DNA from: a virus
Taxonomy: Duplodnaviria; Heunggongvirae; Uroviricota; Caudoviricetes
Reading direction: 5' to 3' (one strand)
Length of the DNA stretch: 12,588 bases
IMG/VR virus record: IMGVR_UViG_2548876944_000014
In this document: piece after piece, positions 3 to 9,407 of the stretch
Position numbering within the stretch: the first letter of the stretch is position 1
How the letters are laid out: each line of letters begins with the position of its first letter
Made by a program: the position numbers and the translations under genes
Notes under the pieces: model-generated
What the model was told of the DNA's origin: nothing
The model's database searches: none
Seen by the model: the letters and a program-made list of their open reading frames with translations, nothing else

Positions 3-488
3 TCATGCCTGTTTTGCGACCTCATTCACTACGTCATTTTTTACCATCCGGCTGATAATCTGATTACACAAATCGTCAATAATTGACTGCACTCTGTTTA
101 CTGCCATCGGTTTAAGCCCGGCATCACGTGCCAGAATATTGGGGAGTTTTGCCAGTTCCTCGCTTACGATTTCCCCCCATATAGCCATCTCTTTTCGCAC
201 ATCATCGGCGGGTATGAGTTGCGCCGTTTCCTGTTCGAACTTGAGGCGTTCACGTTCGGACTGATACCAGGCCTTACGGTCATGTGGCTCCATTTCTTCC
301 AGTGATGCCGGAACGGGAAGATCAAGAAAACAGGTCAGAATGTCAGTCACCCGATAGAGTTTCAGCTTGTCATGCCCTCCGGCTGGCTGGATGTTTTTCA
401 GCCTTGCCGCCGCAGTCTGACGACATATTCCCGCTATCGCCGCCAGTTGATTAATGTTCAGCATCAGATTTTTCAGTTCTCGATCCAT
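3..488 (-). CDS. Putative terminase small subunit (N-terminal HTH, Nu1-like), 161 aa
   Basis: ORF track 3..575 begins at a TTG; the in-frame ATG at 488..486 is preceded by GGAG at about 5 nt spacing, so that start is preferred. N-terminus LNINQLAAIAGICRQTAAARLKN looks like a helix-turn-helix as in small terminases. Sits directly downstream of the capsid gene. Stop codon at 3..5, so the gene is complete. Confidence 0.5.
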   Translation of the reverse strand: MDRELKNLMLNINQLAAIAGICRQTAAARLKNIQPAGGHDKLKLYRVTDILTCFLDLPVPASLEEMEPHDRKAWYQSERERLKFEQETAQLIPADDVRKEMAIWGEIVSEELAKLPNILARDAGLKPMAVNRVQSIIDDLCNQIISRMVKNDVVNEVAKQA

Positions 489-641
489 ACCCGCTCCAGA
501 ATGTTTTAAACATGCATCTTGCGAACAACTTTCAGAAGAGGTCAAAAAATGCGCTATATGTTGAGCATAAAACAAGCAAAATTAACATACCAAAAATAAA
601 AATACTTAAAATTCAATACAATATGAAGATGATGATGACGA

Positions 642-744: not shown

Positions 745-2658
745 TCATGCTCCACTCGATTTCAGTAATCCGCGATAATCGAGGGCCGCGACACCTGCAT
801 CTATGCGCACTTTCCAGGCGACACCATCAACAGTAAAGCCCACCTGCTCCTCAAGATATGGCGTATCCATACCATCAAGATAAGCGACTTCTATTGTGTC
901 CATCCCCTTAGCTGCGGCTACATACCATTCCTTGCTATTGGCCTTATCAAGACGTGGCTCAACAATTACTTCTGCCATATCTTTCACCACGTTAATGATG
1001 CCGGGGTTCTGATTGATAGTGCTCTCATCACCAACCGGAAAGACTGATGACGATGACAAAATGGCGCGACGCGCGGCAGATTCCAGCGCGGCAGGGACCA
1101 GAACAAAAGCAGGGGTAATATTCAGGGAGTCGCCGTTAGCATCCTCCTGGAGGCGCATCCGCTTACGGGCTTCATCAAGCCCCACCATGTCCATATCCTT
1201 CGCAATAAGATTTTTATGATCGGCATGGAATAACGCTTTACCATCCGTAAACTTGCCGTTGCTGGTTAACAGGAGATAAACCAGATTGCCAACTGTTCTG
1301 GCGGCTGCGCGTCCCATCGCCATGGGGATTGTAGTTAACTGGGTCAGGTCATCGTTGATAATGGCCTGACGGGTAACGGAAAAAATATTCCCGTACGTGG
1401 CCAGCGCAATAGGTACACCTTTATCGCTGGTGGTGATGTATTTATATTCCGCACCTTCCGGTACTTTATCCAGCTTTGAAAAACCATTCAGACCAACGCG
1501 CTTTGCTTCATGAAAGTTTGAAAGCGAACCGGTACGCGTCCATTTCTGGAACGTTTCGCCGCTGTCCTGCCAGCCTTTCAGTACAGATTTTTCAGCCCCA
1601 CCAGCCAGAATATGAGAAAAATCACTGCTGCTGTGTGTAAAAGCCGCATTAACAACCTGCGAGCGATTAATAAAACCGCTCACAGTGATACCACGATCAA
1701 CCAGTGATGCCTGGGCCATTTCAAAAAGGCTCATCATCGCGTAAGGGTTGCCTCGTTCAGGGCGTTCATACCCAAGACGGGAATAAAGCCCCTGACGAAT
1801 TGCATCACCTGTTATGTTTCCGTTTCCGGCATAGATATGAGGCGGGGTATTTTTATTGGATGGCGTGGACTCGCGCCCCAGCTCGTTCAACAGCTTTTCA
1901 CGGGCCATTTCCGGTGTACATGATGCATCTTCCAGACACGCCATTTTGATCCCGTCGTAACGACTGCCGAACAGGCTAAACACTTCACTTATTCCATTGA
2001 TGCGCTTCTGTTCATTACCAGCAATATTTGCCGCTCCCTGTGGCGGTGTAATCATTCCTTTAATGGTTTCCGGCATATGTAAAAAATCTCCTGTGCGTTT
2101 CGATTCAATTCGCGCCATTGCTCTGACGGATGGCAACAATTCATCAGCAAAACCGTGCTTAAGGCATTCTTTCCCATCCATCCAGGTTTCATCCTCCAGC
2201 ATGGCGGTAATTTCCTGTGCTGATTTGCCCGTTTTTCTGGCATAAGCAGGGATTAACACGGTTTCCACCTTATCCAGCAAATCAGCATAATCACGCATAT
2301 CGCCAGCATTTCCGCCAGAGATCCCCCACGGTTTATGGATCATCATCATGGCGTTCTCCGGCATCACTACACGATCGCCAGCCATTGCGACCACCGAAGC
2401 CATTGAAGCCGCAACACCATCGATATAAACCGTAATGTCTGCCGGATGATTCCGTAGCAGGTTATAGATGGCGATGCCTTCAAACACATCACCACCTGGT
2501 GAATGGATCCTCAGATTGATATGTGAAACATCGCCAAGGGCTTTCAGGTCTTCCGCGAACTGCTTTGCAGTAACACCGAAGCCGCCAATCTCCTCATAGA
2601 TAGATATATCCGCCGCTCCACGAACATCCGCCGCCTTAATGGTGTACCAGCGATTCAT
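745..2658 (-). CDS. Prohead protease (ClpP-like, peptidase S14) fused to HK97-fold major capsid protein, 637 aa
   Basis: N-terminal ~180 aa has ClpP-like signatures (HSPGGDV, GVAASMASVVAMAGD, MIHKPWG). The C-terminal ~450 aa has the length and C-terminal pattern of HK97-family major capsid proteins. ATG start at 2658..2656 overlaps the TAA of the upstream small ORF (TAATG). Confidence 0.8.
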   Translation of the reverse strand: MNRWYTIKAADVRGAADISIYEEIGGFGVTAKQFAEDLKALGDVSHINLRIHSPGGDVFEGIAIYNLLRNHPADITVYIDGVAASMASVVAMAGDRVVMPENAMMMIHKPWGISGGNAGDMRDYADLLDKVETVLIPAYARKTGKSAQEITAMLEDETWMDGKECLKHGFADELLPSVRAMARIESKRTGDFLHMPETIKGMITPPQGAANIAGNEQKRINGISEVFSLFGSRYDGIKMACLEDASCTPEMAREKLLNELGRESTPSNKNTPPHIYAGNGNITGDAIRQGLYSRLGYERPERGNPYAMMSLFEMAQASLVDRGITVSGFINRSQVVNAAFTHSSSDFSHILAGGAEKSVLKGWQDSGETFQKWTRTGSLSNFHEAKRVGLNGFSKLDKVPEGAEYKYITTSDKGVPIALATYGNIFSVTRQAIINDDLTQLTTIPMAMGRAAARTVGNLVYLLLTSNGKFTDGKALFHADHKNLIAKDMDMVGLDEARKRMRLQEDANGDSLNITPAFVLVPAALESAARRAILSSSSVFPVGDESTINQNPGIINVVKDMAEVIVEPRLDKANSKEWYVAAAKGMDTIEVAYLDGMDTPYLEEQVGFTVDGVAWKVRIDAGVAALDYRGLLKSSGA

Positions 2659-3645: not shown

Positions 3646-5463
3646 TTAATTTTTGCTATCGTCATTAGTGACCGATACACATGATGGCATCCAGTCTTCT
3701 GATTCCTCCGTCAGTGTCACGTTTGAACGCAAACCGTGCTTCGTTTTCCGTTTCATATACTCCCTGCCATATTCCGCCATTGCCCCCGGCATATCTTTAC
3801 CGAAGCGCGTCAGTGTTACAGGTTTACCAAACCCATGTGCCCTCATATAAGCCAGATAGGCATGATAGAGATACCTGCGTGGGCTGAATGGCACAATTTC
3901 AGCATTACCCACTAACAGGCCATCACACATTACCGACGCCATGAGATAGCCGCAGAAGTCCACCAGCGAATCCCCCTCTCGCTTTATCGCCAGTGCTTCT
4001 TCAGATTTCTGCTGCTCATATAACAGGCGTCTGGCTTCGTCCTGGTCAGCAAACCGTGTAAGCAGATGGCGAATCACTACCGCCAGCTCACCTTCTATTT
4101 TTTCCGCCAGCATTGGATCGCGTTCGTTCTCCGGTACAACTTCCGAAAAATTGAATATCACCCGACGACGTGAGATCCCCCCGCTGCGGTCACTGAATGA
4201 CATGGCGTTATTGTTAACCGCCAGCACTACTGCCGGAATACGCGTTGAGTAGGGGGCTTTGTGTTTCGGGTCAATTGCCACCTTGTCACCGCCTGTAATG
4301 GCCTTAATCCCTGCCCCATCACCAGCGTAGCGGGTCATATCCGGCATGATAATCAGCGAAAAGCCAACCACTAACGCGCGTTCCCTTGCATCTTCCAGCG
4401 CCTTCATGCTTGCCGATACTGTGTTGGCCTTACCCGCCAGCATGGTGCAAATCTCCGCCATCACGCTTTTACCACTTCCCCCTGGACCTGTTACCTCAAT
4501 GAATAACTGCCAGTCGTACCGGTTCGCCAGCACCATGAATAAGGCAGCCAGTACGCGATCCGCCTTGCGGTCATTCTCAGCCACCGAACGGCGTAACCAC
4601 TTCCAGAAATTCGGCGCATGTGTTGCCAGCGTTTCCCCCTCTGCTGGTGGGCTGAAAGGTAATTCACTGGCAATTAACAACCAGTCGTTTTTGTTATGCT
4701 CCCGAAAATTACCTGTTCTGGTATCAAATACCCCGTTACTGAATCCAATCAGGTTACGGGCTGTATTCCCCATTACAGGCAAACTTAACTTCATGGTATC
4801 GACCGCCGATTTAATGGCGTTCTGCGAATAGCTGATCTCCGCATCAATGAAAATCTGCGCCATAGCACGCTGTAACTCTTTATCCTGAACCGGCTCCCAT
4901 ACAATGCCGTTGTAATGGTGAACAGTGTCAGAGTCGGCATGAATCGCCAGTTCACCGCCATAATGTGCCAGGAGAACTTCGCCGCGTTGACTTGCTCCCA
5001 TCTGGTTAAGCGCCAGTGATGAAGCGTTATCGTCTTTTACCCGCTCTTTTTTCTTTACAGGCAGTTCAACTACCTTTTTCTTTTCCGCCAGCTCTCCCCG
5101 CTCACGTTCCAGATATTCGCGCCAGTTCTCCCGTTTCTGGCTGTGCATTCCTTCAGGATAATAATCAGCATCCCTGACACCTGCCGCTGCCAGTTTCTGC
5201 CCGATGGTATTAACAAGCCCCGGACGCAATAACCCCGCCTGGTAGAGACGCACGCGATAGCGTCCGTCCGGTACGATTTGCAGGTTGTCCAGTTCGGCAA
5301 GTTGTTGCTCTCCAAGCCAGACAGGTGGCACGTTATCGCCAGCCAGTCGCCCGTCCTGTTCCTGCCACTGCTTCGCATGTGCCCACGCATCACTACCCGC
5401 AAAAATGATGACTTCCGTCATTTTGTCACGCGGCTGGTGTTTTAAATTTGGCGCTTTTTTCAT
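3646..5463 (-). CDS. Replication initiator, P4 alpha-like: D5_N domain plus SF3 helicase (Walker A GPGGSGKS) plus C-terminal putative iteron-binding domain, 605 aa
   Basis: Walker A GPGGSGKS, Walker B-like LIIMPD, and a D5_N-like segment (IGFSNGVFDTRTGNF). ATG at 5463 has GGAGAGAG upstream and forms an ATGA overlap with the stop of the upstream ORF; the ORF-track start at 5478 is GTG. Iterons lie directly downstream. Confidence 0.85.
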   Translation of the reverse strand: MKKAPNLKHQPRDKMTEVIIFAGSDAWAHAKQWQEQDGRLAGDNVPPVWLGEQQLAELDNLQIVPDGRYRVRLYQAGLLRPGLVNTIGQKLAAAGVRDADYYPEGMHSQKRENWREYLERERGELAEKKKVVELPVKKKERVKDDNASSLALNQMGASQRGEVLLAHYGGELAIHADSDTVHHYNGIVWEPVQDKELQRAMAQIFIDAEISYSQNAIKSAVDTMKLSLPVMGNTARNLIGFSNGVFDTRTGNFREHNKNDWLLIASELPFSPPAEGETLATHAPNFWKWLRRSVAENDRKADRVLAALFMVLANRYDWQLFIEVTGPGGSGKSVMAEICTMLAGKANTVSASMKALEDARERALVVGFSLIIMPDMTRYAGDGAGIKAITGGDKVAIDPKHKAPYSTRIPAVVLAVNNNAMSFSDRSGGISRRRVIFNFSEVVPENERDPMLAEKIEGELAVVIRHLLTRFADQDEARRLLYEQQKSEEALAIKREGDSLVDFCGYLMASVMCDGLLVGNAEIVPFSPRRYLYHAYLAYMRAHGFGKPVTLTRFGKDMPGAMAEYGREYMKRKTKHGLRSNVTLTEESEDWMPSCVSVTNDDSKN

Positions 5464-5759
5464 TTCTGCTCTCTCCACGCGGCAATCATGTTTTTCAGTT
5501 CCTGTAGTTTTTTATCCACATCCACACGTGACACATGGTTATTTCTGGAAGTCGGGATTTCCCGCCGGAATCTGCAAATAAAGATCTCCACGTTCAGCGA
5601 ACTAAGAAATGAATATCCATCACGGATAAAATAAACACGGTCAAACATCAGTTCTTTTACCGTTACTCTGTTACCGTTCTTATCCAGATAAATAGCGCCG
5701 GGGATAATTTTGTGGTGTGCATAACCGCTGGCAGTCAAGCCAGATAAATATGTTCTCAT
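5460..5759 (-). CDS. Hypothetical protein (99 aa), translationally coupled to replicase
   Basis: ATG start with GGGGA upstream; stop overlaps the replicase start (ATGA). No recognisable motif. Confidence 0.5.
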   Translation of the reverse strand: MRTYLSGLTASGYAHHKIIPGAIYLDKNGNRVTVKELMFDRVYFIRDGYSFLSSLNVEIFICRFRREIPTSRNNHVSRVDVDKKLQELKNMIAAWREQK

Positions 5760-5765
5760 GATTAT

Positions 5766-6086
5766 TTATCCCCGATTTGAATCAGTATTCGCTTTCTTTA
5801 TGGCATTTAATGCATCTGTGGCATTTTCAATGGTGCACCGTAACGAAATATCAAACCGCCCAAGCATTGCCAGTAACAAACCGATATTACCCATATCAAT
5901 GCGCATGGCCTTTTCGTCATAGTCCTCATTTTCTGACGCATGCCACATCAGGCTACCAATTGACGCAATACCCATTGATATATTGTCAGTAGCCCCATCC
6001 GCAGCGGAATAAACCTTTTTAGCAATATCATGCTCACAGTTAAAATGCGGATTAATCAGGTACTGGTAATTTGACATATCAGGCAT
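5766..6086 (-). CDS. Hypothetical acidic protein (106 aa)
   Basis: ATG at 6086..6084 overlaps the stop of the upstream 67-codon ORF by 8 nt. Same strand and operon as the replicase. No recognisable motif. Confidence 0.5.
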   Translation of the reverse strand: MPDMSNYQYLINPHFNCEHDIAKKVYSAADGATDNISMGIASIGSLMWHASENEDYDEKAMRIDMGNIGLLLAMLGRFDISLRCTIENATDALNAIKKANTDSNRG

Positions 6087-6282
6087 GGCACACCCCCTGA
6101 CGAATACGGGCGGCGAATACCATCACGCAGCCAGCCGGAGATTGCTGGCGTGCTTCCTGTTCGCTGGTGGCCTCAATGGTAATCACGCGCGGTTGTGCCG
6201 TGCTCAGGGCGATAAAACGCCAGGCGAATTTATTCAGGTCGTGCGAGTCCCGCCCTTGCGGGTGTGTGGTATGATTTCTCAT
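6079..6282 (-). CDS. Hypothetical small protein (67 aa), first gene of the replication operon
   Basis: This is the C-terminal part of the implausible 306-aa ORF-track entry. The internal ATG at 6282..6280 is preceded by GAGGT at about 7 nt (MRNH...). Overlaps the next gene. Sits just downstream of the palindromic operator region. Confidence 0.4.
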   Translation of the reverse strand: MRNHTTHPQGRDSHDLNKFAWRFIALSTAQPRVITIEATSEQEARQQSPAGCVMVFAARIRQGVCHA

Positions 6283-6378
6283 AGCTACCTCGATACGCTT
6301 TCTATCGTTGGTGGTTAGAAGCCCGGTTAGTGTTAGCGCACTGCCGGGTTTCGTCGTTTCTGCACCTTGCATCAACAA

Positions 6379-6431
6379 GGTGTTAAACACCAATTTAAGC
6401 CTAGGTGTTAAACACGTCAAGTGTTGAACAC
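6379..6431. promoter_or_regulatory. Three palindromic operator-like sites: GGTGTTAAACACC, GGTGTTAAACACG, GTGTTGAACAC
   Basis: Inverted repeats GTGTT/AACAC at 6379..6391, 6404..6416 and 6421..6431, in the roughly 200-bp divergent region between the minus-strand replication operon (start 6282) and the plus-strand RHH gene (start 6482). Confidence 0.5.
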
Positions 6432-6481
6432 TTATTTTTTTTCCTGCATACTGCATTTGTTTTTTGTAAGGGGTACACAAC

Positions 6482-6661
6482 ATGGCGACAAAAGCAGTAA
6501 ACGCAAAATCACAAACAGTTGCGGCAAGGGTTCCGCATGAAGTTATGAACAATGTTGAGGCGGTAAAAATGCCTGGTGAAAGTACAGGGCAGTTTGTAAC
6601 AGCAGCATTAAAGCGAGAAGTTGAATACCGCCAGCGTCGCAAGGCCAAAGAGCAGGAGTAA
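6482..6661 (+). CDS. Ribbon-helix-helix (Arc/CopG-like) DNA-binding protein, 59 aa; candidate repressor
   Basis: Not in the ORF track (below its 60-aa cut-off). ATG preceded by TAAGGGG. Sequence MATKAVNAKSQTVAARVPHEVMNNVEAVKMPGESTGQFVTAALKREVEYRQRRKAKEQE shows beta-strand (VAARVPHEV), helix, Gly turn, helix as in RHH folds. Followed by a second small ORF and a plus-strand terminator. Confidence 0.5.
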   Translation: MATKAVNAKSQTVAARVPHEVMNNVEAVKMPGESTGQFVTAALKREVEYRQRRKAKEQE

Positions 6662-6718
6662 CCATCACCAGCGCCGTGGTGCGGTGAACTATGGCGCACA
6701 GGGTTACAGGTATCTACG

Positions 6719-6898
6719 ATGACTGACAAATCATTAAAGAAATTATCCTCATCCAAGAAAAAACAACGCAAAAATGCGGTAAACGAACATGAACCGGAGA
6801 GATTCGCACCATGTGCGTTTATCCTTGAGAAGTACCTTAAAGAGTATTCTAGGAAAATACGCTCATTGCAGGCATGGCAGCGAATCGAGCCAGACTGA
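6719..6898 (+). CDS. Hypothetical basic small protein (59 aa)
   Basis: Open frame between the RHH gene and the plus-strand terminator. Weak ribosome-binding site; no motif. Supported mainly by the operon context. Confidence 0.25.
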   Translation: MTDKSLKKLSSSKKKQRKNAVNEHEPERFAPCAFILEKYLKEYSRKIRSLQAWQRIEPD

Positions 6899-6962
6899 TA
6901 ACATTGCCCACCAGCCAACAACCTGGTATTCTGGATATGCTCAAGTTTAGTGTTATGCCACT

Positions 6963-6990
6963 GGCGACCGCCCTTGGTCGCCTTTGTTTT
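6963..6990 (+). terminator. Rho-independent terminator for the plus-strand RHH unit
   Basis: GGCGACC-GCCCTT-GGTCGCC (perfect 7-bp stem) followed by TTTGTTTT on the plus strand. Lies between the convergent small-ORF unit and the alpA stop. Confidence 0.6.
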
Positions 6991-7007
6991 ATGTGTCATA
7001 GCCCCCC

Positions 7008-7232
7008 CTACGCTGCCTTACCTGAATTAACGCGGTCACGGCTTTGCACCCAGTCCATAACTTCGGAAAGCAACCAGCCTACAGAACGCCCCCCAAGATT
7101 ACGGCGAGACGGAAAGCCCCCTTTCTTCTCCAGTTCGTAGCGTGTAGTACGGCTGACGCCTGTTAACTTACGACATTCATCCTCACGAATTACGCGATCT
7201 GTTAGTGATTGAAATTGTGTATTTTGATTCAT
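7008..7232 (-). CDS. alpA: AlpA-family (phage Xis/AlpA-type HTH) transcriptional regulator, 74 aa
   Basis: Small HTH protein with the AlpA-like C-terminus (RSVGWLLSEVMDWVQSR). ATG with GAGGGTG Shine-Dalgarno and its own AT-rich upstream region. Typical position next to int in P4-like and PICI elements. Confidence 0.8.
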   Translation of the reverse strand: MNQNTQFQSLTDRVIREDECRKLTGVSRTTRYELEKKGGFPSRRNLGGRSVGWLLSEVMDWVQSRDRVNSGKAA

Positions 7233-7335
7233 AAAAACACCCTCGAACGTAACCGAACAAGGGCATCTTATTTACCATAGCAGTTGGTGCAACATTGGAA
7301 AAATAAACTTTATTCTAATTTATCGTTCTCCATGA

Positions 7336-8190
7336 TTAATTTTCATTAGATAACATTTTTCTTATTTTTTCTAAAGAATCGCTGCGCATTATTTTTTCTA
7401 AGAAGGGTTTTACAGTCTGAGCAATAGCAAAGGTGTCCTTTTCACCATCAGGATACAAAGATACGGCAAGCACCCCTAATGAAATTTTTCTATCTGTAGA
7501 CAACTCCCAAGATAATAAGTCAATTAATGGGATTATCTTATAATCAATAATTTTACGTCGTATGCTCTCCCAACTTCCTGCAATTGGTTTGTCTGGCTCA
7601 ACAATTGAAAGTTCACTACGCCATTTTGGTAATAGTTTTGTAAACGCTTCAATCAACTCATCATCTCTGTTATGTAGTAAGTCAACAGAAACAAGCATAT
7701 TATCTAATGTATCAGAAAGGAGATTCACTGGTTCACGCATCACAGCCCAAAACATCCCATTATCTTCTGATATTAAACTTCCAACCATCTCATTATCTAT
7801 GATGATTGGTTTATCCTTCCAATATCCTCTTTCCGCAGTCAGTTTATTAATCATTGATATATCAAACCTTGTTACAGGTTTAATTCCATCATCATAACTT
7901 AGCTCAATTAACTTCGGCTGCACTTTATGGTCATATTCTTTTTGTTTATCACAAAACCAATCGTCTTCTTTCAGCTCTCCAAATGGATCCCCGTAATTAT
8001 TATGCAACGGGTATTCAGCACCAAACATAAAACCATATTCAGGCATCTCAGAATGTTTCATTGTTAAATCATCTTGTCGCCAATATAATTGGCGAAATAG
8101 ATCTTTATCCGACAAGTTTTCTAGGCAATCATATTTGCCTAAATCAAATGACTTTGGTAAATCTTTTTTACTATTTACTTTTTTCGTCAT
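7336..8190 (-). CDS. Hypothetical protein (284 aa), AT-rich cargo gene between int and alpA; function unknown, candidate accessory/defence gene
   Basis: Long clean ORF with visibly lower GC than its neighbours. ATG overlaps the int stop (ATGA), so it is probably co-transcribed with int. Acidic, no transmembrane segment, no Walker or nuclease motif recognised. Confidence 0.6.
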   Translation of the reverse strand: MTKKVNSKKDLPKSFDLGKYDCLENLSDKDLFRQLYWRQDDLTMKHSEMPEYGFMFGAEYPLHNNYGDPFGELKEDDWFCDKQKEYDHKVQPKLIELSYDDGIKPVTRFDISMINKLTAERGYWKDKPIIIDNEMVGSLISEDNGMFWAVMREPVNLLSDTLDNMLVSVDLLHNRDDELIEAFTKLLPKWRSELSIVEPDKPIAGSWESIRRKIIDYKIIPLIDLLSWELSTDRKISLGVLAVSLYPDGEKDTFAIAQTVKPFLEKIMRSDSLEKIRKMLSNEN

Positions 8191-9407
8191 TGTATCCCTC
8201 TCAATATCACAATATTTTCATTATATCCTGCAATCATATCAAGACGCTCAACCCATAGATTCAGTGCGTCCCGTTTCGCCTGCAAATAGCGTGAATGGTT
8301 ATAGGTTTTTTGCTGACCTGGCATCTGATGCGCTGTGATGTGCTCCACGATATGCGGATCGACACCTAAATCATTCAGCATAGTTGTAAACGTGTGTCGG
8401 AAATCATGCAGCGTCCAGTGTTCCTGCTTAAGCCGCTTATGCGCATTTCGTCCATATTGCGCCACCGTGGTATCTTTTTTCAGTTCGCCGAGTAATAACC
8501 CAGTGTGTGCGTTTTGCTCCACCAGCTTCTGAATGAACGGCAAAATGCCATCAGGAATAGGTCGGAATATTGTTACCTTCGTTTTGCTGTGCTCTTTTGG
8601 CACTGTCCACAACATTTCTTTCAGATCCCATTCTTTGATCTCTGAAAGTCTGATCTCTGCCGTTCTACACCCGAACACAATTAACAAGCGCATTAACGCA
8701 CTGTAATAGGGAGCGAACACATCACCATCAATAGCGCGTAGAATTTCTTTTAGTTCGCTGTTGCTGTGCACTCTCTCGCGGATTTCTGCTCTCTTACCCA
8801 CATCAGTAACGATCAAATCGTCCAGGGCGTTGCTAAACGCGTAGCGCCGCCTGCGGCAAAACTTTAGCGCCTGTTTGCATGTCTGCATGACATGGCCCGC
8901 TGCTACTGGTGCTTTTTTTCGTACGCGGTCAAAACATGCGATCCACTGCCTTGTATCACACTTATCAAGGGGAATTGCCCCGATATGGCAAATGATGTGC
9001 TTATCCATACGCTGCACCAGCTTTATGTAATCTTTGCGGTTATCCTTCGCGTATTCCTCCAGCCAGTAGTTAATCGCTTCCTTCACCGTAACGGGTTTTA
9101 GTGCTTCTTGTACTGTGGCGCACAACTCATACCGAGGGTTTTTACCCTCAGCCAGCCATGCCCGGCACTGTGTTCGCTTTTCCCTTGCAGATTTCAGCGA
9201 CAATTCCGGGTAAGCCCCCAGCTTTAACCGCTCTGCGGCAACCTCACGGCCTCCCGTTCGGTACCGGAAATACCAGGTTAATTTGCCTCCCTTTGAGTGT
9301 TTAATCTCCAGCCCGCCCCCGTCGGAGTAAAAACGCTCTTTTTCTGCCTGGACAGCCACCAATTTTTTTAACGTTGAATCGCTCAGTTTGTTTAGTGCTT
9401 TTCCCAC
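8187..9407 (-). CDS. int: Tyrosine recombinase / integrase, P4 family (N-terminal DUF4102 arm-binding domain), 406 aa
   Basis: N-terminal DGGGL...WYFRYR...LGAYPELSLKSAREKR signature of P4-type integrases. Catalytic HDFRHTF box and C-terminal Tyr region. GTG start with AGAGGA Shine-Dalgarno. Lies at the element edge facing the chromosome. Confidence 0.9.
   Translation of the reverse strand: MGKALNKLSDSTLKKLVAVQAEKERFYSDGGGLEIKHSKGGKLTWYFRYRTGGREVAAERLKLGAYPELSLKSAREKRTQCRAWLAEGKNPRYELCATVQEALKPVTVKEAINYWLEEYAKDNRKDYIKLVQRMDKHIICHIGAIPLDKCDTRQWIACFDRVRKKAPVAAGHVMQTCKQALKFCRRRRYAFSNALDDLIVTDVGKRAEIRERVHSNSELKEILRAIDGDVFAPYYSALMRLLIVFGCRTAEIRLSEIKEWDLKEMLWTVPKEHSKTKVTIFRPIPDGILPFIQKLVEQNAHTGLLLGELKKDTTVAQYGRNAHKRLKQEHWTLHDFRHTFTTMLNDLGVDPHIVEHITAHQMPGQQKTYNHSRYLQAKRDALNLWVERLDMIAGYNENIVILRGIQ

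What the first reader, a model, noticed from the sequence alone, without database searches (positions are those of the whole stretch)
6283..6990. Candidate genetic switch: palindromic operators between a divergent RHH-protein unit and the replication operon
Three GTGTT-N-AACAC palindromes lie in the divergent region. On the plus strand a 59-aa ribbon-helix-helix protein (not in the ORF track) and a second 59-codon ORF are followed by a perfect 7-bp-stem terminator and face alpA convergently. This resembles a repressor/operator module controlling the replication operon, with the RHH protein or AlpA as the likely binder. An RHH repressor in this position differs from the RNA-based immunity of P4.
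Basis: partly seen in the sequence, partly recalled or inferred. Interest (0 to 1): 0.55.

Follow-up and report, generated by a model that had tools for sequence, protein, structure and literature searches.

The report
Repressor-and-antisense-RNA switch of a phage satellite
This stretch looks like the on/off switch of an E. coli phage satellite (PICI): a small DNA-binding protein with three matching binding sites on the promoter of the replication genes, plus a previously unnoticed antisense RNA related to SymR, which would supply the repressor that has been missing for this class of element.

Summary
Three exact GTGTTNAACAC palindromes lie at 6380-6390, 6405-6415 and 6421-6431. They sit on back-to-back promoters between an Icd-like/primase operon (minus strand) and a 59-aa YlcI/YnfO-family protein (plus strand). 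The window is a PICI of the EcCICFT073 type, and EcCICFT073 itself carries the same module.

The protein models as ribbon-helix-helix. Across about 180 related loci the boxes keep their positions (-102, -77, -61 or -32 from the start codon). Their central bases change in step with beta-strand residues 12 and 14. They do not follow AlpA or the Icd-like protein. The RHH protein, not AlpA, is therefore the likely operator-binding repressor and autoregulator, with many immunity classes.

Positions 6281-6360 (plus strand) hold a conserved two-hairpin RNA, antisense to the Shine-Dalgarno region and start of the Icd-like gene. It shows strong covariation and plus-strand-specific G-U pairs, and it is a reciprocal homologue of E. 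coli SymR.

ORF2 is a real gene, but I found it only in loci with E. coli-type sequence. No binding or expression was tested, and I found no publication describing either layer.

The parts
6079..6282 (-). Icd-like gene, first gene of the leftward (replication) operon
   Evidence: NCBIfam NF033153 at 67 bits against a cut-off of 25. PGAP annotation in L001. Followed on the same strand by a 106-aa hypothetical protein, DUF4222 and a D5-type primase.
6267..6275 (+). Extended -10 promoter (TGgTATGAT) for the antisense RNA, embedded in codons 3-6 of the Icd-like gene
   Evidence: Read from the sequence. A TAnnnT hexamer preceded by G at -14 is kept at this place in all Icd-like N-terminal classes and in K-12 symR (TAGAAT). 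Inferred, not mapped.
6281..6360 (+). SymR-like two-hairpin cis-antisense RNA, complementary to the 5' UTR and Shine-Dalgarno sequence of the Icd-like mRNA and reaching its start codon
   Evidence: Rfam symR RF01809 at 32.8 bits, E 5e-4, below the gathering score. Fold z-score -5.7. 24 pairs, 16 with compensatory changes. 95.8% of cells paired, 0 of 500 shuffles as good, slid controls about 40%. 116 G-U cells against 4 A-C cells, so the plus strand is the folded strand. Model R1, built without symR, hits this site at 87 bits and the K-12 symR gene at 32.3 bits, E 1.3e-5.
6363..6382 (.). Inverted repeat CACCTTG-N6-CAAGGTG whose right arm runs into O1. It may form the 5'-terminal hairpin of the leftward transcript.
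   Evidence: Equivalent repeats abut O1 in other classes and change together with the O1 flank. Role inferred.
6380..6390 (.). Operator box O1 (GTGTTAAACAC), over the predicted start site of the leftward promoter
   Evidence: Position -102 from the RHH start codon is conserved across classes.
6392..6420 (-). Leftward promoter P_L: TTGACG (6420-6415), 17 bp, TAAATT (6397-6392)
   Evidence: The CGTCAA motif is conserved at the same place in nearly all related loci.
6405..6415 (.). Operator box O2 (GTGTTAAACAC), filling the spacer of P_L and touching its -35
   Evidence: Position -77 is conserved across classes.
6421..6431 (.). Operator box O3 (GTGTTGAACAC), overlapping the -35 of the rightward promoter
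   Evidence: Position -61. Most other classes instead have a box at -32, directly after the -10 of the RHH promoter, and one class has both.
6424..6452 (+). Rightward promoter P_R of the RHH gene: TTGAAC, 17 bp, CATACT (8 of 12 matches, below the scan threshold)
   Evidence: Read from the sequence. The -10 lies where other classes have TATACT. Inferred.
6482..6661 (+). 59-aa YlcI/YnfO-family ribbon-helix-helix protein, the proposed repressor
6719..6898 (+). ORF2, a small basic protein of unknown function, apparently co-transcribed with the RHH gene
   Evidence: phrog_21027 E 5e-30. The reading frame and the motif ERFAPCAF.LE.FLKEY are kept at about 70% DNA identity, and the ORF always starts 57 nt after the RHH stop. 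Absent outside loci with E. coli-type sequence.
6963..6990 (+). Intrinsic terminator of the RHH-ORF2 unit (hairpin plus TTTGTTTT); the tail is not U-rich on the minus strand
   Evidence: Equivalent plus-strand terminators follow the RHH or RHH-ORF2 unit in most of the loci examined.
7008..7232 (-). alpA (AlpA-family regulator), convergent with the RHH unit
   Evidence: Pfam PF05930 E 5e-16. AlpA is the activator in EcCICFT073 (PMC6092414).

Best explanation
The window is a Gram-negative phage-inducible chromosomal island (PICI) of the EcCICFT073 type. Region 6267-6990 is its immunity or maintenance switch, and it works at two levels.

1. Transcriptional layer. The 59-aa YlcI/YnfO-family protein is a ribbon-helix-helix repressor made from P_R. 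Dimers bind the three 11-bp boxes. O1 and O2 cover the start site and spacer of P_L, so the Icd-like to primase operon stays off. O3 covers the -35 of P_R, so the repressor limits its own synthesis. Arg16 probably reads the invariant GTG/CAC ends of the box, and residues 12 and 14 the variable centre. This gives many mutually non-cross-reacting immunity classes.

2. Post-transcriptional layer. An RNA of about 80 nt, homologous to SymR, is transcribed from an extended -10 promoter inside the Icd-like gene. It is fully complementary to the leader and Shine-Dalgarno sequence of the P_L transcript and reaches its start codon. It probably blocks translation of the Icd-like gene and destabilises any leaky transcript. 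Polarity on the downstream replication genes is a further possibility.

What is shown: the sequence features, the RHH fold, the covariation between boxes and protein, and the RNA structure, its strand and its homology to SymR.

What is inferred: binding, repression, expression of the RNA, and how AlpA or the helper phage lifts the block. One possibility is AlpA-driven transcription running through the convergent RHH unit, because no minus-strand terminator lies between alpA and P_L.
For: Anatomy:
- Three exact boxes lie on a consensus-like promoter.

Conserved architecture:
- The order int, alpA, RHH gene (opposite strand), boxes, Icd-like gene ... primase is conserved in Pectobacterium, Xenorhabdus, Klebsiella, Yokenella, Dryocola and Edwardsiella, and in the prototype EcCICFT073.
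- Box positions are fixed at -102, -77, -61 or -32 across classes.

Specificity tracks the RHH protein:
- The box core maps one-to-one onto RHH residues 12 and 14 in at least 10 classes. Examples: T/A with GTGTT[AG]AACAC, K/E with GTGTCAGCCAC, A/K and S/K with GTGTGGCCCAC, S/T with GTGTAAGACAC. Arg16 and the GTG..CAC ends are invariant.
- The same mapping holds in an independently fetched set of loci.
- An Edwardsiella locus with an identical RHH protein keeps the same boxes although its Icd-like protein is 53%, AlpA 31% and primase 42% identical.
- 41 locus pairs have Icd-like proteins at least 95% identical but different box classes, and 59 pairs have AlpA at least 95% identical but different classes.

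RHH fold:
- AlphaFold2 gives pLDDT 80.
- hhalign places residues 12, 14 and 16 on Arc residues 9, 11 and 13.

Conserved repressor slot:
- Of 87 SymR-like loci, 53 carry a YlcI/YnfO-type RHH gene by my pattern and 19 carry a second RHH-like family ending in ...GIEPKG with its own palindromes. Most of the remaining 15 are variants of these two types.

Antisense RNA:
-.
- In K-12 symE the LexA box occupies the place the RHH boxes occupy here.

Literature:
Against: - No experimental binding, reporter or transcript data exist.
- The boxes lie within about 120 bp of the RHH gene, so simple physical linkage contributes to their co-inheritance.
- Many boxes are only 4/5 palindromic, and some occur in inverted orientation.
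- P_R is a weak consensus match (8 of 12).
- The RNA's second hairpin is followed here by an interrupted U-run (UUUCGUCGUUUC), so termination may be inefficient.
- The Rfam symR score is well below the gathering threshold.
- Published work shows that over-expressed AlpA alone induces EcCICFT073. The RHH block must therefore be bypassable, and its quantitative importance is unknown.
- Foldseek and PDB sequence searches gave nothing significant.
Confidence: 0.62

Rival explanations
1. AlpA, the known PICI activator encoded next door, is the protein that binds the GTGTT-N-AACAC boxes.
For: AlpA is a DNA-binding regulator that controls PICI gene expression (PMC6092414). It is always adjacent to the module.
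Against: Box class is independent of AlpA. 59 locus pairs have AlpA at least 95% identical (some 100%) but different boxes. 373 same-box pairs have AlpA below 60% identity. Within the window's box class AlpA identity ranges from 27% to 100%.
Confidence: 0.03
2. The Icd-like protein, which PHROGs labels 'transcriptional repressor', binds the boxes and autoregulates its own operon.
For: phrog_6196 and phrog_1743 are annotated as transcriptional repressors. The boxes lie on its promoter.
Against: 41 locus pairs have Icd-like proteins at least 95% identical but different box classes. 330 same-class pairs are below 60% identical. One Icd-like N-terminal type occurs with five box classes. NCBIfam places the protein in the Icd cell-division-inhibitor family.
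Confidence: 0.03
3. The RHH protein and ORF2 form a self-contained type II toxin-antitoxin or similar two-gene cassette. The boxes would serve only its autoregulation and would have no role in controlling the replication operon.
Against: ORF2 is absent from the module in most genera, yet the boxes keep the same positions on P_L. ORF2 starts 57 nt after the RHH stop rather than overlapping it, matches no toxin family, and is shuffled independently of the RHH class. Two of the three boxes lie on the core of the leftward promoter, not on the RHH promoter.
Confidence: 0.08
4. The conserved hairpins act on the minus strand as part of the operon leader. They would be a processed, trans-acting immunity RNA of the P4 CI or P1 c4 kind, rather than a plus-strand antisense RNA.
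For: P1 c4 RNA lies upstream of icd on the same strand (my own knowledge). C4 and isrK relatives occur in some Gram-negative PICIs (PMC10111431). The minus strand also folds (z-score -3.8).
Against: Rfam gives no C4 or isrK match here even at E up to 10. Pairing is 95.8% on the plus strand and 81% on the minus strand, with 116 G-U cells against 4 A-C cells. The homology is to SymR in SymR's own orientation, including its promoter position.
Confidence: 0.05
5. The RHH protein has a packaging-related or other non-regulatory role. Its namesakes YlcI and YnfO lie beside the terminase small-subunit genes of lambdoid prophages. The boxes would then be recognition sites for that function.
For: K-12 ylcI lies divergent from nohD, next to the DLP12 cos region.
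Against: In the satellites the boxes sit precisely on the -35/-10 spacer and start site of one promoter and on the -35 or +1 of the other. These positions are conserved across classes. The module is at the regulatory end of the island, far from the capsid and DUF1441 genes.
Confidence: 0.04

Closest known systems
SymE/SymR of E. coli K-12 (type I toxin-antitoxin-like pair; Rfam RF01809)
   Same: An RNA of about 77-80 nt with two hairpins is transcribed from a promoter inside the first codons of the target gene and is antisense to its Shine-Dalgarno and start region. The RNAs are reciprocal covariance-model hits. They share sequence blocks (TTGTGATTAGCG...GTGTTGGCGCAC against TTGGTGGTTAGAAG...GTGTTAGCGCAC) and the same promoter spacing. 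A repressor site lies immediately beyond the second hairpin.
   Different: The target is an Icd-like gene heading a satellite replication operon, not the AbrB-fold SymE. The adjacent repressor sites are class-specific RHH boxes, not a LexA box. The score (32.8 bits) is far below Rfam's gathering score (61), so this is a distant relative and not a curated member.
Phage P22 immI region (Arc and Mnt RHH repressors controlling Pant and Pmnt)
   Same: Small RHH repressors bind operators that overlap closely spaced divergent promoters. One promoter drives the repressor and the other a lytic-function operon. (From my own knowledge of the P22 system.)
   Different: There is no sequence relationship beyond the fold. 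Here there is one RHH protein with three or four 11-bp boxes, the controlled operon is a satellite replication module, and an antisense RNA layer is added.
Phage P1/P7 immI (c4 RNA, icd, ant)
   Same: An Icd-family gene is the first, translationally gated ORF of an operon, and a small RNA occludes its ribosome-binding site. In P1, blocking icd translation shuts off the downstream gene. (From my own knowledge.)
   Different: c4 is a sense-strand, processed, trans-acting RNA, and there is no C4 match here. Here the RNA is cis-antisense, and a protein repressor is present as well.
Satellite P4 immunity (CI RNA with seqA/seqC)
   Same: A satellite with integrase, an AlpA/Vis-type regulator and a primase, in which leader RNA control acts on the replication operon.
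   Different: No CI, C4 or isrK RNA is present. Control would be by an RHH repressor plus an antisense RNA. None of psu, delta or sid is annotated in the island as seen in L001.
SaPI Stl / Gram-positive PICI Rpr master repressors
   Same: The repressor gene is divergent from the replication operon, with operators in the divergent region, and it keeps the island quiescent (PMC6092414).
   Different: Stl proteins are larger HTH proteins unrelated to this 59-aa RHH protein. Whether this RHH protein is inactivated by a helper-phage protein is unknown. Gram-negative PICIs additionally need AlpA.

Membership tests
Ribbon-helix-helix (Arc/MetJ/CopG) superfamily | N-terminal beta-strand followed by two helices joined by a G-x-S/T/N turn | tested here: met
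   The sequence QTVAARVP-HEVMNNVEAVK-mpGES-TGQFVTAALKREV fits the pattern. hhalign puts it in register with the Arc and CopG strand and helices. The AlphaFold2 model has helices at 19-28 and 35-58; the strand is not formed in the monomer model.
Ribbon-helix-helix (Arc/MetJ/CopG) superfamily | Three-dimensional similarity to solved RHH proteins | tested here: met
Ribbon-helix-helix (Arc/MetJ/CopG) superfamily | Obligate dimer that inserts a two-stranded sheet into the major groove of repeated or palindromic sites | not testable with these tools
   Indirect support only: 11-bp (pseudo)palindromic boxes whose centre covaries with the outward-facing strand residues 12 and 14.
YlcI/YnfO family (NCBIfam NF041551; DUF3950) | Score above the curated cut-off of the family model | tested here: met
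   59.7 bits against a cut-off of 30, E 2e-16. The Pfam scan gave no hit at E up to 0.01.
SymR antitoxin RNA (Rfam RF01809) | Score at or above the Rfam gathering threshold (61 bits) | tested here: not met
   32.8 bits, E 5e-4 over 1.35 kb. No match at gathering thresholds.
SymR antitoxin RNA (Rfam RF01809) | Two-hairpin structure, cis-antisense to the Shine-Dalgarno and start region of the adjacent gene, with its promoter inside that gene | tested here: met
   Structure with covariation. Plus-strand specificity. Position relative to the start codon and the -10 element matches symR. A model built without symR finds the annotated K-12 symR gene. Transcription itself was not tested.
Gram-negative PICI (Fillol-Salom et al. 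2018) | int and alpA at one end, followed by a primase-based replication module on the same strand, size about 10-15 kb, no full set of phage structural or lysis genes | tested here: met
   int 8187-9407, alpA 7008-7232, primase 3646-5478, one protease/capsid fusion gene, island about 9.7 kb between the thiM side and rcnR. The gene order matches EcCICFT073.
Gram-negative PICI (Fillol-Salom et al. 2018) | Induction and packaging by a helper phage | not testable with these tools
   No experimental data for this island.
P4-type RNA immunity (C4 / isrK Rfam families) | CI/c4-like RNA and its target repeats in the operon leader | tested here: not met
   No C4 or isrK match in 6000-7350 at E up to 10, on either strand.
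Type II toxin-antitoxin operon with an RHH antitoxin | Antitoxin gene immediately followed by (usually overlapping) a toxin gene of a recognisable family, the pair being inherited together | tested here: not met
   57-nt gap. ORF2 matches no Pfam or NCBIfam family. ORF2 is absent in most genera and recombines independently of the RHH class.

The most novel reading that the evidence does not exclude
The YlcI/YnfO RHH protein and the SymR-like antisense RNA together form the long-sought immunity system of Gram-negative PICIs, including the model element EcCICFT073. The system exists in a dozen or more heteroimmune classes, whose DNA specificity can be read from two beta-strand residues. The chromosomal symE/symR locus of E. 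coli K-12 would be a domesticated remnant of this satellite leader module, in which LexA boxes replaced the RHH operators.
Probability: 0.45. Interest if true: 0.8.

Novelty: new variant of a known kind. Interest (0 to 1): 0.68.

Why it matters
For Gram-negative PICIs the only known regulator is the activator AlpA. [quoted passage not shown] This analysis points to a specific 59-aa protein of a family with no assigned function. That protein is present in EcCICFT073 itself. This immunity class (at least 80% of the module) is found in 487 of 5,426 complete E. coli genomes, about 9%.

The analysis also gives the protein's operators and a residue-to-base specificity table that predicts which islands are heteroimmune. 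All of this can be tested directly with EMSA and reporter fusions.

It also uncovers a second, RNA-based layer and ties the well-studied SymR antitoxin RNA to a mobile-element origin.

Practically, PICIs are being engineered as antibacterial and diagnostic vehicles, so knowing their off-switch matters for controlling them.

Tried and rejected
- Rfam at gathering thresholds over the whole window found nothing. C4 and isrK, the P4/P1 immunity RNAs, were looked for specifically and are absent.
- The Pfam scan gave no hit for the RHH protein, ORF2 or the Icd-like protein at E up to 0.01. Scanning all 25 family members gave only weak hits, three of them to families I take to be RHH or RHH-antitoxin related (CB_ParB_C, DUF7557, PSK_trans_fac), at E of 0.06 or weaker.
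- tblastn of the RHH protein against 50,697 phage genomes found no match, and the Icd-like protein hit one 16.5-kb 'induced prophage'. The module therefore seems confined to satellites.
- hhalign against single Arc, CopG and YlcI sequences gave in-register but statistically weak alignments.
- My first guess at the EcCICFT073 coordinates returned a lambdoid prophage instead.
- The 306-codon minus-strand ORF at 6079-6999, which spans the whole finding, was considered. I rejected it as a mechanical read-through of the Icd-like frame: PGAP starts the gene at 6282 behind a GAGG Shine-Dalgarno sequence, and the upstream part runs antisense to two conserved genes.
- AlpA, the Icd-like protein and the primase were each tested as alternative specificity partners of the boxes and rejected.
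- Literature searches for YlcI/YnfO, DUF3950, RHH plus satellite, SymR plus Icd, and EcCICFT073 plus repressor found no description of this module. Subscription-only papers are not covered.
Full report
**What the window is**

A 99.9%-identical copy lies in the chromosome of E. coli CUVET16-819, between the thiM side and rcnR. PGAP annotates it as follows, all on one strand: integrase, DUF6387, an AlpA-type HTH regulator, an Icd-like protein, two small proteins, a D5-type primase, a ClpP-protease/major-capsid fusion and DUF1441. One gene, a 'YlcI/YnfO family protein', lies on the opposite strand.

This is the layout of Gram-negative phage-inducible chromosomal islands (PICIs). The prototype EcCICFT073 (NC_004431 1377930-1388654) has the same local order: alpA, a small hypothetical gene, the YlcI/YnfO gene on the opposite strand, the Icd-like gene, DUF4222 and primase.

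**Checking the observation**

- GTGTTNAACAC occurs exactly three times, at 6380-6390, 6405-6415 and 6421-6431. It occurs nowhere else in the window even with one mismatch allowed. The expectation from shuffles is 0.43.
- The 59-codon ORFs at 6482-6661 and 6719-6898 are as described.
- The plus-strand terminator at 6963-6982 plus TTTGTTTT, and the convergent alpA at 7008-7232, are as described.
- The scan also finds a good minus-strand promoter: TTGACG (6420-6415), 17 bp, TAAATT (6397-6392). O2 fills its spacer, O1 covers the predicted start site, and O3 abuts its -35.
- O3 also overlaps the -35 of a weaker rightward promoter that I read from the sequence: TTGAAC (6424-6429), 17 bp, CATACT (6447-6452).

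**Is the small protein an RHH protein, and is it conserved?**

- It matches NF041551 well above the cut-off.
- It has 74 homologues across Escherichia, Salmonella, Klebsiella, Pectobacterium, Serratia, Proteus and Xenorhabdus, and 17 columns are invariant among the 25 I aligned.
- Its sequence has the RHH signature: strand, helix, G-E-S-T turn, helix.
- An AlphaFold2 model reaches pLDDT 80.
- Sequence-only searches of the PDB and Foldseek were uninformative.
- hhalign places residues 12, 14 and 16 on Arc residues 9, 11 and 13. From my own knowledge, those are Arc's base-contacting strand positions.

**Do the boxes belong to this protein?**

I fetched 19 loci from genomes of other genera and 80 from IMG/VR.

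- In all the loci with enough flanking sequence, the order int, alpA, RHH gene (opposite strand), repeated boxes, Icd-like gene ... primase holds.
- The boxes stay at fixed distances from the RHH start codon: -102 and -77, plus -32 in most classes, -61 in the window's class, and both in one class.
- The conserved CGTCAA -35 sits just right of the -77 box.
- The box sequence itself differs between groups, and it does so in step with strand residues 12 and 14:

| Residues 12 / 14 | Box |
|---|---|
| T / A | GTGTT[AG]AACAC |
| K / E | GTGTCAGCCAC |
| A / K and S / K | GTGTGGCCCAC |
| S / T | GTGTAAGACAC |
| K / D | GTGTCAGACAC |
| R / D | GTGTCGGACAC |
| M / T | GTGTATTTCAC |

- Arg16 and the GTG...CAC ends never change.
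- Residue 13, and the rest of the protein, can differ (down to about 66% identity) without any change in the box.
- In a second, independently retrieved set of loci the mapping holds again. For example, QSLTAR has the same TGTAAG core as QSVTAR.

**Excluding the neighbouring proteins**

The boxes are physically next to the RHH gene, so linkage alone predicts some association. I therefore asked whether the neighbours do as well.

- 41 locus pairs have Icd-like proteins at least 95% identical but different box classes.
- 59 pairs have AlpA at least 95% identical but different classes.
- Hundreds of same-class pairs have AlpA or Icd-like proteins below 60% identity.
- An Edwardsiella hoshinae island encodes the identical RHH protein and the same boxes, but its Icd-like protein is 53%, AlpA 31%, primase 42% and integrase 22% identical.

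AlpA, the Icd-like protein and the primase are thus excluded as the specificity partner.

**A conserved 'repressor slot'**

I scanned IMG/VR for the conserved RNA motif described below, rather than for the protein. This returned 87 loci that fit the RNA pattern and have enough flanking sequence.

- 53 carry a YlcI/YnfO-type RHH gene by my sequence pattern.
- 19 carry a second RHH-like family of about 60 aa ending in ...RGIEPKG. These have their own palindromes (for example ATGGTAATTACCAT and AGGTGTACACCT) flanking the same GTCAA -35.
- Most of the other 15 are variants of these two types that my patterns missed. A few lie in unrelated contexts.

A slot filled by interchangeable small repressors, each with its matching repeats, is what immunity regions look like.

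Between the start codon of the Icd-like gene and O1 lie two hairpins.

- Rfam's only sub-threshold match in the region is SymR, on the plus strand at 6283-6355 (32.8 bits, E 5e-4; gathering score 61). There is no C4 or isrK match.
- The plus strand folds with a z-score of -5.7.
- In an alignment of 31 satellite loci plus K-12 symR, RNAalifold finds 24 pairs, and 16 of them show compensatory double changes.
- 95.8% of cells are paired. None of 500 column shuffles does as well, and register-shifted controls give about 40%.
- The structure holds 116 G-U cells and only 4 A-C cells. It therefore pairs at 95.8% on the plus strand and only 81% on the minus strand.
- A covariance model built without symR scores 87 bits at 6281-6360. 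Its only other hit, in the three sequences searched (this window and two K-12 loci), is the annotated symR gene of K-12, on the right strand (1334-1417 against annotated 1336-1412; 32.3 bits, E 1.3e-5).
- The resemblance extends into the promoter. An extended -10 (TGgTATGAT, 6267-6275) lies inside codons 3-6 of the Icd-like gene. A TAnnnT hexamer with G at -14 is kept there in every Icd-like N-terminal class. The spacing in Xenorhabdus (TAGACT-GTATGTC-AGCCAT) mirrors symR (TAGAAT-GCGTGTC-AGTCAT).
- In K-12 a sequence I read as the LexA box of symE (CTGTATATATCATCAG) sits just beyond the second hairpin, where the PICIs have their RHH boxes.

I conclude that the island encodes a distant homologue of SymR. 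It is a cis-antisense RNA covering the leader and Shine-Dalgarno sequence of the first gene of the replication operon and reaching its start codon.

**ORF2 and the terminator**

- ORF2 always starts 57 nt after the RHH stop.
- It keeps its frame and the motif ERFAPCAF.LE.FLKEY at about 70% DNA identity, and it matches phrog_21027. It is therefore a real gene.
- It is missing from the module in Xenorhabdus, Pectobacterium, Klebsiella and others. It also combines freely with different RHH classes. It is an accessory gene of unknown function.
- A plus-strand intrinsic terminator follows the RHH or RHH-ORF2 unit in most of the loci examined.
- On the minus strand the hairpin at 6963-6982 has no U-tail. 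No convincing minus-strand terminator lies between alpA and P_L. alpA transcripts could therefore read into the switch; this is an inference.

**Proposed mechanism**

In the quiescent island, the RHH protein made from P_R occupies O1 and O2 and occludes P_L. Through O3 (or the +1 box in other classes) it limits its own synthesis. Any escaping P_L transcript is caught by the SymR-like RNA, which masks the ribosome-binding site of the Icd-like gene. By analogy with P1 c4-icd-ant and SymR-symE, this should prevent translation and destabilise the message, and possibly impose polarity on the downstream genes.

Induction needs AlpA, whose expression is triggered by the helper phage (PMC6092414). How AlpA or a phage factor overcomes the RHH block is unknown. 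Convergent read-through transcription and an anti-repressor are both open possibilities.

The anatomy, fold, covariation, RNA structure, RNA strand and SymR homology are shown. Binding, repression and RNA expression are inferred.

**Comparison with what is known, and novelty**

RHH repressors on divergent promoters (P22 Arc and Mnt), RNA gating of an icd gene (P1 c4) and cis-antisense control of a start codon (SymR) are each familiar. The combination, and its place in Gram-negative PICIs, is not described in any paper I could search. The founding PICI paper states that a global repressor in these elements is unclear. A later survey mentions only C4/isrK-type immunity RNAs in some islands.

The YlcI/YnfO (DUF3950) family has no assigned function. 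Its K-12 namesake ylcI sits in a different context, divergent from nohD.

I class the finding as a new variant of a known kind, of fairly high interest. It makes an open question in satellite biology directly testable, in the model element itself. This immunity class alone is present in about 9% of complete E. coli genomes.

Noticed in passing
window 6079-6999 (-): A 306-codon open frame on the minus strand spans the whole finding. It runs antisense through the RHH gene and ORF2 and in frame into the Icd-like gene. It looks like a mechanical ORF. PGAP starts the gene at 6282, and phrog_6196 has a 26-residue N-terminal extension that probably reflects similar over-calling.
   Followed up: partly
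L105, L116, L123, L182, L198, L205 and others (IMG/VR loci): A second family of RHH-like proteins of about 60 aa ending in ...RGIEPKG occupies the same slot next to the SymR-like RNA in other islands. Their start codon overlaps the GTCAA -35. They are flanked by their own perfect palindromes (for example ATGGTAATTACCAT, AGGTGTACACCT, TACGTACGTA).
   Followed up: partly
L021 1280-1430 (E. coli K-12 symE/symR): The homology between the satellite module and symE/symR extends into the first codons of symE (MTDTHS against MADIQS) and the symR promoter. A LexA box takes the place of the RHH boxes. This suggests that symE/symR derives from a satellite leader module, or the reverse.
   Followed up: partly
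window 6363-6382: An inverted repeat CACCTTG-N6-CAAGGTG overlaps O1. Equivalent repeats (CCTTGA...TCAAGG) abut O1 in other classes and change with the O1 flank. It may be a 5'-terminal hairpin of the leftward mRNA or an extra protein site.
   Followed up: no
L102 4252-4840 (K-12 DLP12 prophage): The family namesake ylcI lies divergent from the terminase small-subunit homologue nohD, next to the cos region. It is not beside an Icd-like gene, so the family has at least two genomic contexts.
   Followed up: no
L049 (IMGVR_UViG_2529293141_000017), RHH genes at about 2501 and about 3241: One contig carries two complete RHH, box and SymR-like modules of different classes (KSQTVAAR and KSQMTTVR) about 740 bp apart. 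This is either tandem islands or a duplicated immunity region.
   Followed up: no
window 745-2658 (-) and 3-575 (-): The island's late end encodes a single ClpP-like prohead protease/major capsid fusion protein, followed by a DUF1441 protein (named in the L001 annotation). No portal or terminase gene is annotated in the island. This is a minimal capsid-related set, different from EcCICFT073's separate capsid and decoration genes.
   Followed up: no
window 7336-8190 (-): A DUF6387 gene of 284 aa sits between int and alpA and overlaps the end of int by 4 bp. A distant relative (about 25% identity) is also present in the Yokenella locus L004.
   Followed up: no
L114 9709 onward (IMG/VR): One island has an intact SymR-like RNA, but the boxes are replaced by AT-rich DNA and the RHH gene is decayed (ATGGCGACTGCATAA...). 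This looks like a natural loss of the repressor.
   Followed up: no
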